Shown: one piece after another, positions 1 through 7,085 of the stretch | How positions within the stretch are numbered: the first letter of the stretch is position 1 | How the letters are laid out: every line of letters begins with the position of its first letter | Assembly (NCBI GenBank): GCA_964016885.1 | Contig: OZ024749.1 | Location: forward strand, 27,528,001-27,592,000 | DNA: 64,000 nucleotides | Reading direction: 5' to 3' | From: Eledone cirrhosa | Taxonomy: Eukaryota | Notes under the pieces: generated by a model | What the model was told of the DNA's origin: nothing | Databases searched by the model: none | What the model saw: only the letters and a program-made list of their open reading frames with translations | Translations under genes and position numbers: made by a program

Positions 1-1359
1 TTCCATCGAGTGCTCAGGAGAGATTGTCATACCACAACTAAGGGTCCTTCCAATCGCCAAACTTCTTCACAGCATGTACTGGGTGCGTTTATCATGTAAA
101 TCACCAAAACCAAGGAGGATCCCCGACCCTTTGACAAGTTTTCTATGATTTGATGCCCTTCCTATCACCAACCTTTTGTCTGCCAGGAATGTGTGTGGTG
201 GGGTTGAAATAAGAAAGTTGAGAATAACTGTTAGGGAGTGCTGGTGGAAGAAGGGGAAGGTAAGCCAGGTCATATTGTATGCTGCAGGTTGGGTATTCTT
301 CAGCATTGCATAGCACCAGCCCACGCAGTCTTTAGTCAATCCTGTTGTAAGGTTTACAATCTCCTCCCATGTTTTCCCAGATCTGCCTCTTCCACAGGTC
401 CCAGCCCTAAATTTTACCATTACTCAATTATTTAAAAAATTAATTGCAATAAATGTGAAGTGGTTGAGGATAGGAAGGGTATCCAACCATAGAAACCTTG
501 CCAACAAAGGGTTAGGAGGACCCTTTAGTTATGTCAAGGGGATGACAGCCTCCCTAGTGTTGGTGATCTACACCATATATGTACTCAGTACATGCTGTAA
601 AGTGATTGGTGTTAGGAAGAGCATGCAACTGTAGATAACTTATCAAAAGTTTCTGTCAAAAAGCCCCTCTTGTGCATTCAGTAGAACATGACACAGTGCG
701 TAAGCGAGATGTTGACACCACCCACCCAATTAGGGTCAAAAGACAGATATAGAAAGAATAGCAGAAGTAGAGAGCACATCTATCTATATATATATATATA
801 TAATTGTTTCTACTTTGGGCACAAGGCCAGCAATTACTCAGTGCATTACTGGTACTTTATTTTATTGACCCCATAAGGATGAAAGGTAAAGTTAACCTCT
901 GCGGGATTTGAACTCAGAATGGCAAGGGCCGTAACTATGTGTCAAAGCATGGCGTCCAACCCTCTACCGATACTGCCAATAATGAATAGGAACAAGGTGT
1001 CAAAGTATCATCATTAACTTTATTCAAGTGTGATATGCCTTTCACAATTGATCAACTTAAGGAGCAATCCGTATTGATCAGGCCAGACTCTGGAATCAGT
1101 TGCTCATCAGACTTGTGGTTTCCTTAACCTTTAGCACACTGTATTATGTATTAAGGGGAGATTACTCTATCAACAACACGAGGCACCTACAGCACCCAAA
1201 AGCTTAATGATGGGAGATATCCATACACCTTCAAATTATCATTTTACATTCAATTGAGGTGTGGACCCACCTATGCATCAAGTGCTCAAGTTGGTGAATC
1301 AATAGTAACGTAAAGTTACAAACCATTAATATATATATATACATATATTGAGATATATA

Positions 1360-4300
1360 TAGTCAGCAGTGCTGAAACTAGTAATTCCAGTCTTGGAAAT
1401 TGTTTGATACCAAACATTATCGTTATATTAATGGTAAAAAAATACTCAAATTTTTACAGCATAATAGATGGGGTTTTCCCCATGGCAGAAGAGACAAATC
1501 ATTATGCCCAAATAATTTGTTGGGCATAATGATTTGTCGCTTCTGCCATGGCTTTGAAGAAAGTCTGTAGCAAAACACAAAAAGAAACAATCCAGTGGGT
1601 GGGCATCATGTGGTAGTGTGTGGTGGACCAGGTTTTTCACTGAAATCAGGAATATTTATTGCTGTTGTGTTTTTTGACCACATCGCTATTTCACTTTCAC
1701 TGGTGTGGACATCTTCACTTTCACTATCATTGTCAGTTGAAAATTCCCAAATATATACCCGATTCATTCAAAAATAAATTGCAGTAAGAACTGCCAATGC
1801 GAGCCAAGCTGTGGAAATCTCTCCTAATCCAGAACTAAAAACAAGAATGGCATCTTGCATCTCCAAAGGGGATGCCCACGCTGTTGATATCAAATATCAT
1901 AAACAGTGTTGGACAAGAAATGTGTTCCATGTTCTGAGAGATAAAGCTATCGCAAACAAAGCAAACAGAGTGGGTGTCAACATCAAACAGCTAGTTTCAT
2001 TGAATTAGTGAATATTATCGACGTACAAACTACAGATGGCGCATATCTTTCCATGGCAGACATCGAGAATACCTATTTGAACATGCTAGGTGGGGCAGAG
2101 GCTTTGCCATATCACAGACCTGTCTATAGCAGACAATGGCTGAAAGACAAAATATTAACAGAATTACCAGGTGTAAGGTCTTCTGCAAAGCAATAGGCGA
2201 AGGTCAGCTGTGTTGTATTACCCTGAACCATCACTTCTGATGACACGGACAACATGAAGAATCTCTATAGGTCTCTCTGTGACTCCCATATCATACAGCT
2301 ATAGTTCCTTGTGAGAAGCCAAAGCAGAAGATACCATCCGAGAAGAGGATGATTCAGTTTGCCATTGACAAAGAAGGTGTGGATAGTACCTACCAGCTCA
2401 CACATCTGGGATGGGTCGTTGCCTACGCTGTTTCCCGAATGAACGATGGAGGCTCGAGTTGAATTCCAGGTTGGGCAGGCTATAACTCACATTTGTCGAC
2501 AAGCCTACCCTTAACTGAGGTTGGAGTTCTACCTTTGCTCCCAGAAGTCGCGCATGAATAGCCAACATTGCTATCTGTTATGATGCAAGCAAACAAATTA
2601 AAAGAGCTGGCAGTTGCTGACAAGTACCTCACTGTCATTTCCTTCGCATTCTATGAGAAAGCAGTACAGTTGGTTGATGCTAGGCCGGATTTGAAGGGCA
2701 AAGTGATGCCAAGACTTGGTGAGTTTCTTGGTGTTGTCATGGCTGTGTTGAGAGCTCTCGGCTCTTCAATTGAATGGCAGACTTATGGTTCTTGCCAGGT
2801 CCGACCAAGACGTGAACCAGAAAGAAGCAATTAGCAATTACGAGTTCACCTTGATGCCAAGAGCACTCTTTGCCCCAAATGGGTCAGTGTTGCCATGCAC
2901 TGACAAGTCCAAACTCATTCATCTCCTTGAGCAGATAGCATCAGAGAAAACAGCACAAGGCGATTCACTGCAAGATGAAGCCACTGAAAAGGACAATCGC
3001 AATCACAACAGGTGGGTTGCGGTGGTAGATGGAATGCTGCTTATTCAGAAGCTGACTAAGAAACCAGCTACCATGGTTACAGTGAGAGATCTAAGCCAAA
3101 GTTTCTATGAAAGACTGATGAACCTCACGTAGAACTTTGACGAAATAATTCTCTTGTTTGACACATATAAGACCGATTCCTTGAAGAATGCAACCAGGCA
3201 GAAGAGACGCCAAGGGAAGGATCCAGTCCAGTATCAAGTCAGAGATGAGACGAGCATCAAGCACATAACCATGAAAAGACAAAGGCTGATTTGACCAAGT
3301 ACTTGGTAGAAAAGACTGTACAACAGCAAATATTCCTCCAAGCTTGTCATCACTTCAGCATCTGGCCAAACCAGGAGCAACAAGGATTTGGAACCTTTTA
3401 GTAAAAACAACCACGAGGAAGCTGACACACTGATGATATGCCTTGCAGTATCTTCAACAAGGCGAAACCCAAGAGATATTCAACTAACTTTTTTCTCACC
3501 TGACAGATGTCCTGGTTCTGGTAATTGCCAACTATGATTTGTTACCTAGGCACACCCCCCATCTCATCAAGTGTTCTAAAGATCCAACCATTCTGGGACG
3601 TTCTAGGTCCAGCAAAGGCGAAGGCTTTACCTGCATTCCATCCCTTCTCTGGCGCCGATAATACGGGAAGGTTTACTAGAGTAGGAAAGGCCACATGGTT
3701 CAAGATCTTCCTTGAAGCTGACGATAACATCATTGATGCTCTGAAAAAGCTGTCTGATGATACTGAAGTGACTGAAGAACTTCTGACCAGATTGGAAAGT
3801 TTTGTGTGTCCTGCCTACAGTCCAAAGAGAATCCAAATCAAAAGCATTCCAGAGTTGCGATGGCACCTGTTCTGTAACAAGTTACCACCTACAGTTGGTG
3901 CCCTCAAGCAGCACATCTTAAGGGTACATGTGAAAGCACAAGTTTGGGGCCAGACAAGCACTCTCCAGCAAGTTCCGGAGATGATGGCCAACTAAAGCCA
4001 ACCACTACTGATGGTTCTCCAGCACCTAAAGCCATCATTGAGATGGTGAGATGCCAGTGCAAGGGAGATTGTTCCTCACAAAGATGTTCCTGCAGTGCAC
4101 CGACCTTTGCCTGTGCACCACACAGTGTGAAAATGACATGGAAAGAGTATCAGTATTCCTTGATTCAGGTAATACTGATAGTGAGAGTGATGACTGATAT
4201 CATGGTTATGACTGATTCCGTTCTAAAAGTCGCAATAACAAAATGTGCACAAATTTGTATTCCTGCCTGTTAAAAGTCATGACTGATTTTATTGTGAAAT

Positions 4301-4786
4301 GGACAAAAGCAAAGTGTCCACAAATTAATTGTTTTATGTATTAAAATAAAGTGTACATGAAGACAAATTTATTTTTATTGTTTGACTCGTGCTTCGATAT
4401 CCTGATTATGAGTGGATCTAGAGAAGAAATATCATATTTGCATGTGGTGTTTGTAGTTTTGTCATTAAAATTGGTATTTTTATTTAAAAAATCTTTCTTC
4501 ATGTTAAACGTAAGTGATTGTAGTCAATTTCTCTAGACTTCTGGCCCCTTAAAATGTAAGTTTAGCCACTGAAAGTAAAAGGCTACATGGCTTGGAAGTG
4601 GATATATTGGTAAATTTAGATTTCAAACGGTCCCCATTTTGAAGCCCTAAGACGGCCATGTTCGGAACCCTAAAAAAAATAAGGCAACATTGATTTTTGT
4701 TTTCAATACATCCTAACGTTTCCAAAAATGTATAGTTTAGTAAATCTCCAAAAAATTTGAACAAAAATACACAAGGAACTGGACTA
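1360..4786 (+). mobile_element. Decayed, unclassified DNA-transposon-like element: transposase-like core + FEN1/XPG-type PIN nuclease + C-terminal Cys-rich CXC domain (frameshifted, internally deleted)
   Basis: Collinear broken ORFs 1811-4273 carry the motifs DAHAVDIKYHKQC, PGWAGYNS, VISF.FYEKA...PRLGEF, YEFTLMPRALF, VVDGM, FDTY..DSLK, NHEEADT (3412-3429), FHPFSGADNTGRF..GKATWFK, LPPTVGALKQH..R and CQCKGDCSSQRCSC. Putative ends are TAGTC (1360-1364) and GACTA (4782-4786); the ends are less certain than the coding relic. Confidence 0.75.
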
Positions 4787-5751
4787 TAGGTTGAAGCCAA
4801 TTTTGGCCGCTTTCTATGCTAAAGGTCTAAAGTGTAAAAGTCAATCAAAATAATTTTTAGTCCCTGCACGTTACATCGTTATTACTAATAAATTTTAATT
4901 GCATGTTTAGTCTTCCATAATGTTTTAACATTTTCCCAACTGTATTTTAACCCTTTAGCTTTTATATTACTCTATATTTACTATTTCATTTTCATGGTAA
5001 AGGCTTTACCTGACATAATATCAATCTATAAGATTTTGAGAACACCTTAACATCAGTACAAGTGGCTGGTTTGAACAGAAAGAGGTGAGAAAATTCTGGC
5101 CAGATACCGCCGGTTTAAATGTTTACGTTTTCAGAATGGAGATCTTTGGGTGTGTTTGGTAAATAATTAAGGTGGTAGATTGGCAGTATTGGTAGAGGGT
5201 CAGACGCCATTCTTTGACGCATAGAGTTACGGCCCTTGCCATTTTGAGTTCAAATCCCGCTGAGGTTAACTTTGCCTTTCATCCTTACAGGGGGGGGGGG
5301 GGGGGTCGATAAAATAAAGTACCAGTAATGCACTGGATAATTGCTGGCCTTGTGCCAATAGTAGAAACAATTATGTTATTTAATAGATTCTGAAGAAATG
5401 TATTTTCCTACTGTATTGATAGAAACGTTCATAAATCTCTTCTATGCCCACTTATTCGTGAGTGGGTCCTGTCAGAAGTAATCGTCTCCAACTGGATCCC
5501 AAATGAGACTAGCCAAGCTCATGGATGTTATCCAACCATCTTGCTCGAGGTCTACCTCTGGGTCCCCTACCTGTTGGTTTTTACCTGTAAAATCTCTAGT
5601 GATTTTTTTTCGTGAGAGATTCTAACCACATGCCCATAGTATTGGAACAGTGATCTCTCAATTTGGAGAAGTATTGGCTCTACCTGGAGTGACTGATCTC
5701 CAAGCTATGTACATAATTTAATGTAACTTAATCTTGGTTATTTTTATTCAG

Positions 5752-7085
5752 ATCATCATCATCATCATCATCATTTTACGCCCGCTTTTCCCTGCTTGCA
5801 AGGGTGGAACGGGTCCTATTCAGCACAGCATCTCTCCATTCATCTTCAGCGATCTGAGGTCAGCTCTTACCACCTCCGCCCATGATTTTCGTGGTCTTCT
5901 TCTACTAGGATTTCTTGGTACTTCTTTACCCAGCGATCATCCTCCATGCACATTACATGTCCATACCAACGCAGTCTTTTCTCCCGCACATACAGTCTCT
6001 CTCTCAACTCGTCTATGCTTGGTTGTTCATGCACATCCAACAGAGCATACTTGCTTCATTTCTTTCCAGCCGTCGCATATCCTCTGCAGTTGCTGTCCAC
6101 GTCTCACTACTATAGAGCATCACGCATCTCACACAAGCATCATATAACTGACCTTTCGTTCGTAGGGAGAAACCCTTCGTCAACAGCTCCCTAAACGTCT
6201 TCCAACCCATCCTTATTCTAGATACTATGGCCTTGGAGCATCCTCCTCCCTTGCTAATCTGATCACCTAGGTATCAGAAGCTATCAACCATCTCTATAGA
6301 TCCTACCTACATTTGAAAAATGTGTCTACCGCTGTGACTTCTACTGTCAAATTTGTCTGTACATCTACTGCATATGTAGTTTTCCCTACCTGTTAGTTTG
6401 CCTGCTATGCCACATCTCTTGTGTACCCAAGATCTGCATTGTGTACATTTTATAGAATTTATGCCAACTCAAAGGAGTTGGCATAAATTCTATAAAATGT
6501 ACACATGGCCATTTTCCTGATGGAATCAGAGTTTTGTCCTCTTTTCTACCTTATCAACACTGTAGTCTTAGCTAGGTTCACTCTCGGTCCTCTTGATTCC
6601 AACAGCTGTTTCCATAGCTAGAATTTATTCTCTAGCTCCTCTAATGATTCTGCTATAAGTAGCAGATCATCAGCGTAGAGAAGTTCCCATGGGCAGCCTG
6701 TTATGGCTTGGAGAACTATAATGAACAAGAGCAGCCTGAGGACCGAACCCTGATGTACTTCTACTTGTATCTGGAATTTCTCAATAAACTCCATTCCTAC
6801 TCTCACTTTACTGATAGCACCCCTGTACATAGCTTGCACTGTCTTCACAAGCCATTCCTCTACACCTAGTTTCCTTAGGGACCACAGATGACAGATTGGG
6901 GTAATCTATCAAAGGCCTTCTAGGTCAACAAAAGCTAAGTATAGTGGCTTATTCTTCTCTAAGAACCTCTAGTTGCCTCACTAAGAAGAGGGCATCTGTT
7001 GTACTTTTCCCAGGCACAAAACAAAACTGCATCTCATCTAATTTGACCCTTTCTCTAATTAGTTGCGCTAGTATTCTTTCTGTCA
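5752..7085 (-). mobile_element. 5'-truncated RTE-clade LINE relic
   Basis: Minus-strand RT fragments (HQGSVL, ELLYADDL, GWKTFRELL..LYDACVR) and a (GAT)n tail at about 5752-5773. Confidence 0.85.

What the first reader, a model, noticed from the sequence alone, without database searches (positions are those of the whole stretch)
1360..4786. Unclassified element fusing a transposase-like core to a FEN1/XPG-type nuclease and a CXC domain
Seen: one broken reading frame runs from a KYHxxC motif through PGWAGYNS...FYEKA...RLGEF to VDGM / FDTY / HEEADT / GADNTGRF..GK and ends in a Cys-rich CxC..C....CxC module. It is bounded by very short inverted ends (TAGTC...GACTA) that include TA. Established: EAD plus a GxD..GxG helix-turn-helix motif is the signature of FEN1/XPG 5' nucleases, which standard cut-and-paste DDE transposases do not carry. 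Inference: this is a relic of a poorly characterised transposon class that encodes its own flap-type nuclease, possibly for processing ends or repairing the donor site. I recall similar proteins only as hypothetical or CXC-domain annotations in invertebrate genomes and do not know of a mechanistic study. This copy is dead and lacks a central segment (abrupt join near 2770).
Basis: partly seen in the sequence, partly recalled or inferred. Interest (0 to 1): 0.75.

Follow-up and report, generated by a model that had tools for sequence, protein, structure and literature searches.

The report
Dead AcademX transposon fragment, left-truncated
This is a broken, partly deleted copy of a known but little-studied jumping gene (AcademX), whose single protein is predicted to join a cut-and-paste enzyme to a second, DNA-trimming nuclease; one of the two ends first proposed for it is really part of an unrelated older transposon.

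Summary
The motifs are real and the fusion is real, but the class is known: AcademX (Academ superfamily). Window 1779-4786 is a dead copy of a young multicopy family in this genome. Near-full copies are 5.4-5.8 kb, with ~230-bp TAG...CTA inverted ends and 3-bp target duplications (11 of 13 copies). Models of better-preserved copies match FEN1/EXO1/XPG nucleases (Z 14.8) and DDE transposases (P element, Z 10.4). Conserved residues line up, by eye, with a published Academ profile. The proposed left end at 1360 is wrong: 1292-1779 is a piggyBac fossil that aligns straight through it. This copy lacks its left 819 bp, has two large internal deletions and has lost all three putative catalytic residues. 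One unusual feature: a shared internal motif sits 22 bp from one tip and 32 bp from the other (one DNA turn apart), in this family and in relatives, and which end is long differs between families. The scan has already reported AcademX, and this asymmetry, on other DNA. Low interest as a locus; the family's mechanism remains open.

The parts
1779..4786 (+). AcademX remnant: left 819 bp (left inverted repeat and start of the gene) lost, two large internal deletions, many frameshifts and stops
   Evidence: colinear with near-full copies at 84-95% per segment
1779..2273 (+). N-terminal gene piece with the KYHKQC motif (1892-1909); 28-bp deletion at 2227
   Evidence: (homologue residues 160-343)
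2271..2774 (+). Middle of the DDE core (PGWAGYNS, FYEKA, RLGEF). The upstream deletion (~644 bp) removes the first putative catalytic Asp; a small deletion removes the second (FDMALYEKA reads F--AFYEKA); the deletion at 2772 (~1120 bp) removes the D-x3-E motif
2770..3971 (+). Linker plus FEN1/EXO1/XPG-like 5' nuclease domain (VDGM, FDTY, HEEADT, D-T-D broken by a 2-bp deletion at 3502, GADNTGRF); stop at 3130 and frameshifts
   Evidence: fold of an intact-frame copy
4052..4135 (+). Cys-rich C-terminal module (CXC/TCR-like), split by a 16-bp deletion at 4089; gene ends at TGA 4195-4197 after an acidic tail
   Evidence: (weak Lin-54 CXC match, E 0.045)
4554..4786 (+). Right terminal inverted repeat (~230 bp), the 'short' end (inner motif 22 bp from the tip), ending GAACTGGACTA
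1292..1779 (-). NOT part of the element: fossil of a piggyBac-type transposon (acidic N-terminal coding piece); contains the chance TAGTC at 1360

Best explanation
Window 1779-4786 is a dead, left-truncated and internally deleted copy of a multicopy AcademX DNA transposon, whose intact form likely moved by cut-and-paste using one ~1600-residue protein with a predicted DDE transposase core and a predicted FEN1/EXO1-like 5' nuclease. SHOWN: multicopy family, ~230-bp TAG...CTA inverted ends, 3-bp A/T-only target duplications, one long gene, conserved acidic residues in both domains, and ends whose inner motif lies 32 bp (left) or 22 bp (right) from the tip. PREDICTED: both folds. INFERRED mechanism (my odds about 50% for the nuclease step): the protein binds one long and one short end; the DDE site nicks each end at CTA-3' and joins it to A/T-rich target DNA with a 3-nt stagger; the fused 5' nuclease cuts away the other (non-transferred) strand's flanking DNA as a 5' flap, doing the second-strand job that other transposases do with a hairpin or with a separate subunit (Tn7 TnsA, recalled). 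This copy inserted near an older piggyBac fossil; a later deletion joined the inside of the fossil to the inside of the Academ gene (inferred). With one end and none of the three putative catalytic residues it cannot move itself and is unlikely to be moved.
For: Copies: 268 matches among 40 of 607 candidates scored; 19 exact left-end and 25 exact right-end pattern matches, controls 0. Target duplication 11 of 13 two-ended copies, shuffled mean 2.2, 0 of 100,000 shuffles reach 11. Relatives from metagenome contigs share TAG...CTA ends, are 5637-5714 bp when full length, and 5 of 6 with a located end pair have 3-bp duplications (17 loci examined). C-half model (pLDDT 82.5): the top 17 of 48,161 chains are all 5'-nuclease superfamily (EXO1 Z 14.8, rmsd 3.6, 257 aligned; Xrn1, T5 FEN, FEN1, GEN1, XPG Z 11-12.6); Foldseek 77 matches at E<=0.001, all 40 rows shown being such nucleases. 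Seven acidic positions conserved: D197, D241, E334, D336, D362, D364, D416 in 41 of 41, E333 in 40 of 41. Core model (pLDDT 90.0): best match P element transposase Z 10.4, rmsd 4.2, 278 aligned, then ISCth4, Tn5, integrases, Hermes. D24 52/55, D193 52/55, D443 and E447 55/55. Published Academ profile (PMC5751038 supplement, 3 of about 19 parts read): nodes 16-30 d-g-k-a-t-p-h...q fall in exact register with conserved G35, T38, H40, Q48; y-k-k-a matches Y-E-K-A; D-e-a-l-E...K matches D-H-A-C-E...K. PMC10045372: AcademX encodes a nuclease and makes 3-4 bp duplications. Curated bivalve Academ elements average 5565 bp (PMC10294476). No helicase motifs in 0 of 61 full-length homologues.
Against: The defining papers (Kapitonov and Jurka 2010; Yuan and Wessler 2011; Kojima 2020) could not be read, so 'XPG', 'Cys8' and 'TAG termini' as AcademX hallmarks are recalled, and the profile match is by eye, not scored. 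Foldseek gave no match at E<=0.001 for the core (top rows Hermes transposase, E 0.06), and Z 10.4 for a largely helical model is moderate. Pfam and PDB sequence searches give nothing significant. Nothing here tests what the nuclease cuts. Which three acids are catalytic is inferred from conservation and fold. 2 of 13 copies lack a perfect duplication.
Confidence: 0.92

Rival explanations
1. Same element, different job for the nuclease: the DDE core cuts both strands itself (as P element transposase does, recalled), and the fused 5' nuclease then resects the broken donor site or trims ends, steering repair towards copying the element back from the sister chromatid, which raises copy number.
For: Best structural match of the nuclease is EXO1, a resection enzyme, though near-tied with Xrn1, FEN and GEN1 rows; best match of the core is P element transposase; internal-deletion derivatives typical of interrupted gap repair are common (two-ended copies range from 3.1 to 6.4 kb). 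A comparable model is proposed for the KolobokP nuclease (PMC9587614, passages).
Against: Deletion derivatives arise for ordinary cut-and-paste elements too. PMC10045372 links target-duplication length to whether the accessory enzyme is a nuclease or a helicase, which points to a role in the transposition reaction itself rather than at the donor site.
Confidence: 0.3
2. It is an undescribed superfamily that only resembles Academ.
For: No significant Pfam match; no formal score against Repbase was possible.
Against: Academ cores are reported to lack any Pfam match (PMC5751038); motif register matches the Academ profile at three places; target duplication, length and nuclease all fit AcademX.
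Confidence: 0.04
3. It is a host FEN1/XPG pseudogene or an assembly artefact.
For: None found.
Against: Multicopy, intronless, with inverted ends and target duplications. A 557-nt contig of a public run spans 1269-1835, across the piggyBac/Academ join, with 1 differing letter and 10 gap positions (this run may come from the same material as the assembly).
Confidence: 0.01

Closest known systems
AcademX lineage of the Academ superfamily (Kapitonov and Jurka 2010; Kojima 2020; neither readable here, seen through passages of PMC10045372, PMC5751038, PMC10294476)
   Same: DDE core matching the published Academ profile motifs; fused nuclease; 3-bp target duplication; ~5.6 kb; TAG...CTA ends and Cys-rich tail (these two hallmarks recalled).
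   Different: A family apparently not matched to a named entry (Repbase not searchable here). The one-turn difference between the two ends was not found in the papers searched, but the key paper could not be read.
AcademH lineage
   Same: Same superfamily core (PMC10045372 passage).
   Different: AcademH encodes a helicase and makes 9-10 bp duplications; here 3 bp and no Walker A plus DExH motif in any of 61 full-length homologues.
Drosophila P element transposase (6p5a)
   Same: Best structural match of the core, RNase H fold with a long helical insertion; unequal spacing of binding sites at its two ends (recalled).
   Different: P has no fused 5' nuclease and makes 8-bp duplications (recalled; the structure paper was not held).
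FEN1/EXO1/XPG/GEN1 5'-nuclease superfamily
   Same: Predicted fold and seven conserved acidic positions.
   Different: Only 9-19% identical to solved members; here a domain within a transposase, substrate unknown.
KolobokE/KolobokD/KolobokP (PMC9587614, passages)
   Same: Eukaryotic DDE transposons that carry an accessory nuclease, showing that the theme recurs.
   Different: Different nuclease folds (lambda-exonuclease-like, DnaQ, His-Me finger) and a different transposase superfamily.

Membership tests
Academ superfamily | RNase H-like DDD/E transposase core | tested here: met
   Model matches DDE transposases and integrases, best Z 10.4 to P element; conserved D24, D193, D443, E447. Foldseek alone was not significant. 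Tested on a sibling copy; the window copy has lost these residues.
Academ superfamily | Core belongs to the Academ profile rather than another superfamily | tested here: met
   By-eye comparison with nodes 16-40, 195-219 and 450-465 of the 465-node RNase_H_Academ profile; the profile itself could not be run, so no score.
Academ superfamily | Terminal inverted repeats beginning TAG (hallmark recalled, not read) | tested here: met
   11 of 13 two-ended copies start TAG (the others CAG, AAG) and 12 of 13 end CTA; ~230-bp imperfect repeat.
AcademX lineage | 3 or 4 bp target-site duplication (PMC10045372) | tested here: met
   3 bp in 11 of 13 copies, 4 bp in 0 of 13; absent in the window copy because its left end is lost.
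AcademX lineage | Encodes a nuclease (PMC10045372; XPG type recalled) | tested here: met
   5'-nuclease fold and conserved acids.
AcademX lineage | C-terminal Cys-rich zinc module (recalled as 'Cys8') | tested here: met
   A strict nine-Cys pattern in 26 of 41 aligned proteins, most others Cys-rich at the C-terminus; zinc binding not tested.
AcademX lineage | Groups with named Repbase AcademX families in a tree | not testable with these tools
AcademH lineage | Helicase gene and 9-10 bp duplication | tested here: not met
   0 of 61 full-length homologues with Walker A plus DExH; duplication 3 bp.
piggyBac (window 1292-1779 only) | DDE_Tnp_1_7 transposase and TTAA-CCC termini | tested here: met
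   PF13843 above cut-off in 2 of 3 sibling-copy fragments scanned; the window's own 53-aa piece gave no hit; several copies end AAAGGGTTAA.

The most novel reading that the evidence does not exclude
AcademX transposons of this clade obey a pairing rule like the 12/23 rule of antibody-gene recombination: each element carries one end with the inner binding motif 22 bp from the tip and one with it 32 bp from the tip, and the transposase only joins a short end with a long end. The rule survives a swap of which end is long (left-long here and in one other family, right-long in at least two others), so it is the pairing that is kept. Together with a fused flap nuclease acting as second-strand cutter, this would be an undescribed eukaryotic transposition chemistry. 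The scan noted the asymmetry earlier on other DNA.
Probability: 0.4. Interest if true: 0.6.

Novelty: new member of a known kind. Interest (0 to 1): 0.22.

Why it matters
As a locus it matters little: a dead fragment of a named transposon lineage. The family is useful because copies are young (17 copies differ by 4.6% on average), which fixes the ends, the target duplication and the protein anatomy. That makes two open questions testable in intact relatives: what the second nuclease does in AcademX transposition, and whether the one-turn difference between the ends is a pairing rule. Only one Academ family was found in this 3.0-Gb genome, with 57-72% protein identity to pieces in an eel, Antarctic fishes and a sea spider, which hints at a single invasion, possibly by horizontal transfer (not tested).

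Tried and rejected
Pfam on window fragments and on intact frames: nothing above cut-off (only weak DUF6589 and TCR). PDB sequence search: 0 hits for the single protein, weak Lin-54 CXC hit for the profile. Foldseek on the core: no match at E<=0.001. Idea that the Academ copy is nested inside the piggyBac fossil: rejected as unproven, because 4787-4945 aligns poorly or not at all to the piggyBac copies and the match at 4946-5130 starts with its own TTAACCC end. L126/L128 as a family with a 14-bp offset: rejected, they are rearranged copies 89-96% like L089 and the motif lies in another repeat. Degenerate consensus-end pattern in the own genome: 0 matches; a distant nuclease-domain query returned only the same family, 19 matches among 60 candidates; neither proves absence. 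Tree of end polarity: the right-long families group with 90% bootstrap, the rest is unresolved (43-57%), so one swap suffices and more are not shown. Expression: no RNA holder listed. Literature: 9 searches; 'Academ + transposon + XPG' 0 papers, 'AcademX' 1 relevant paper, asymmetry search nothing relevant among 4 listings. Kojima 2020, Yuan and Wessler 2011 and Ghanim 2019 were not held. 21 of 33 supplement files of PMC10294476 were not searched and may hold curated Academ sequences. No complex prediction or Atlas search was run.

Full report
1. Observation. Against an intact 1606-aa homologue (P0004) the window gives eight collinear pieces of 40-70% identity covering residues 160-343, 563-725 and 1105-1592. 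The gene is therefore real, broken, and missing three large blocks. Against near-full copy L046 (5788 bp) the window lacks the first 819 bp, about 644 bp at 2272 and about 1120 bp at 2772.

2. A multicopy family with defined ends. A search of the own genome (3.0 Gb) gave 268 matches from 40 of 607 candidates scored. I fetched 20 stretches; 13 held both ends. They begin TAGTCAAGTTCATAATG and end GAACTGGACTA, have ~230-bp imperfect inverted repeats, and 11 of 13 are flanked by a 3-bp duplication, all of A and T only; none has 4 bp. Shuffling the pairs gives a mean of 2.2 matches and never 11 in 100,000 trials. Exact end patterns match 19 (left) and 25 (right) times, with 0 for the reversed controls. 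Seventeen copies differ by 2.3-7.1% (mean 4.6%) over 2775-4250, so the burst is fairly recent. No copy among the 11 of 20 stretches printed, or the 13, has a whole open frame; the longest pieces are 919, 683, 654 and 616 aa.

3. The left boundary is wrong. Window 1362-1790 finds a different repeat at 68-78% identity. Alignments to seven of those copies start at 1292, 1327, 1329, 1352, 1355, 1386 and 1416, so five run through the TAGTC at 1360. Those copies encode piggyBac-type transposase pieces on the opposite strand (PF13843, E 7e-22 and 4.5e-17; 2 of 3 fragments; the window's own 53-aa piece gave no hit) and several end in AAAGGGTTAA. TAGTC is common here (37 in 64 kb) and the window's flanks (ATA, TAG) do not form a duplication. 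The element therefore starts abruptly at 1779, where a deletion joined the piggyBac fossil to the Academ gene (inference). A 557-nt contig from a public run spans this join, though that run may share its source with the assembly.

4. The protein. A search with a sibling copy read through one stop with X found 137 proteins at E<=1e-10 among 7993 candidates scored, many of 1500-1650 aa on 5-7 kb contigs; named ones come from fishes, a sea spider, a snail, a lancelet, a tunicate, a sea cucumber and a thrips, labelled hypothetical, CXC-domain or by unrelated names. The representative library holds 6622 hits at E<=0.001: the family is large. The C-terminal half (616 aa, 41 sequences) folded with pLDDT 82.5; the 17 chains with Z>=8 among 48,161 are all 5' nucleases, led by EXO1 (Z 14.8, rmsd 3.6, 257 aligned), with Xrn1, T5 FEN, FEN1, GEN1 and XPG at 11-12.6; Foldseek agrees (77 matches at E<=0.001). 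Seven acidic residues are invariant in 41 of 41, in the order known for the FEN1 active site (recalled), so the nuclease was under selection for catalysis (inference). The core (556 aa, 55 sequences) folded with pLDDT 90.0; its best match is P element transposase (Z 10.4, rmsd 4.2, 278 aligned), followed by ISCth4, Tn5, retroviral integrases and Hermes. Foldseek found nothing at E<=0.001, with Hermes on top. Candidate catalytic residues are D24 (52/55), D193 (52/55) and E447 (55/55), with D443 (55/55) beside it. The window copy has lost all of them.

5. What is known. PMC10045372 (two passages read) states that AcademH makes 9-10 bp and AcademX 3-4 bp duplications and relates this to the helicase or nuclease they encode. 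PMC5751038 (passages, and 3 parts of its supplement) says Academ cores match no Pfam family and supplies a 465-node Academ profile. Nodes 16-30 (d-g-k-a-t-p-h ... q) fall in exact register with our conserved G35, T38, H40 and Q48; nodes 195-198 (y-k-k-a) match Y-E-K-A; nodes 450-462 (D-e-a-l-E ... K) match D-H-A-C-E ... K with one gap. This is a by-eye test, not a score. PMC10294476 (passages) gives a mean of 5565 bp for 100 curated bivalve Academ elements and finds Academ almost confined to bivalves among molluscs. PMC4455052, PMC9587614, PMC5753468, PMC9783078 and PMC10368747 were seen as passages only. The defining papers were not held; that the AcademX nuclease is XPG-like, followed by a Cys8 finger, with TAG termini, is recalled. 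The repeat landscape of the window looks octopus-like to me (recalled, untested); if so, this family would be a modest exception to the rarity of Academ outside bivalves.

6. Unequal ends. The two ends align with a 10-bp gap near the tip: the inner motif starts 32 bp from the left tip and 22 bp from the right in 12 of 13 copies (the 13th has a changed motif and was not scored). In 77 metagenome loci the terminal pattern matched 53 times; 13 rows had no inner motif (internal matches or copies cut right after the tip) and were dropped. Of the 40 left, 38 have the motif at exactly the short or the long position, one at 33 and one at 17. All 8 loci with both ends scored have one short and one long end. 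Polarity differs: left-long here and in the L092 family, right-long in the L068 and L089 families and, from separate contigs 91% alike, the L116/L125 family; these families are 65-81% alike in DNA. A tree groups the right-long families (90% bootstrap) and leaves the rest unresolved, so one swap is enough. All belong to one clade of at least 50% protein identity to the query; distant AcademX were not examined. 5 of 6 relatives with a located TAG...CTA pair have a perfect 3-bp duplication, one of them TGG (17 loci examined; the script favoured pairs with a duplication); two more differ at one base and one does not match. A paper search for it found nothing relevant.

7. Mechanism. Most likely cut-and-paste: pairing of a long and a short end, nicking at CTA-3' and strand transfer with a 3-nt stagger by the DDE site, and removal of the non-transferred strand's flank by the fused 5' nuclease (inferred, about even odds). 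The main rival is that the DDE site cuts both strands and the nuclease processes the donor break or the ends afterwards. Nothing here distinguishes them. The Cys module, weakly like the Lin-54 CXC domain (E 0.045), probably binds DNA (inference).

8. Verdict. A new family member of a named lineage, dead at this locus, and a kind of finding that the scan has reported several times on other genomes. Interest 0.22. The boldest reading not excluded is a 12/23-like pairing rule plus a flap-nuclease second-strand cut (probability 0.4, interest 0.6).

Noticed in passing
window 1292-1779 (-): Old piggyBac-type transposon fossil (68-78% to other copies), itself an internal-deletion form; it holds a local 32-bp inverted duplication (1480-1511 / 1520-1551, 97%) that sibling copies lack.
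   Followed up: partly
window 4946-5130; also 8166 and 11790: Short repeat starting TTAACCCTTT that matches the 5' end region of the piggyBac family: probably a very abundant piggyBac-derived miniature element.
   Followed up: partly
window 4325-4383; L033, L035, L048; G000:C1:403851617-403907956: A 50-bp unit in the element's 3' untranslated part has grown into long tandem arrays in several copies; in one, the left and right ends lie about 56 kb apart.
   Followed up: no
L040:4361-7117 (+): A two-ended 4032-bp copy with an in-frame deletion keeps a 919-aa open frame that has the nuclease domain but not the first two putative transposase acids; L033:5405-7252 keeps an open 616-aa nuclease-plus-Cys frame.
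   Followed up: no
L036:7512-7999: The right end of one copy is duplicated head to head as a 488-bp palindrome (98%), suggesting local re-insertion or a template switch.
   Followed up: no
window 2774-4490 versus run X6 (organism C): A 2485-nt contig from a run labelled as another organism is about 95% alike to the window; a further contig carries the consensus-type end seen in metagenome relatives. Close relative or horizontal transfer cannot be told from coded names.
   Followed up: no
window 6440-6505: Perfect 31-bp inverted repeat with a 4-nt loop inside a LINE-like stretch.
   Followed up: no
window 800-980 and 5179-5374: Two copies of a SINE-like repeat in opposite orientation (89-93%) flank the region; they are not the element's ends.
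   Followed up: partly
P0053, P0065, P0066, P0074, P0113: Academ pieces sit in database proteins under misleading names (a bacterial symbiont hypothetical, kinase, ABC transporter, aminopeptidase, 'envelopment polyprotein'), likely annotation fusions or host contamination.
   Followed up: no
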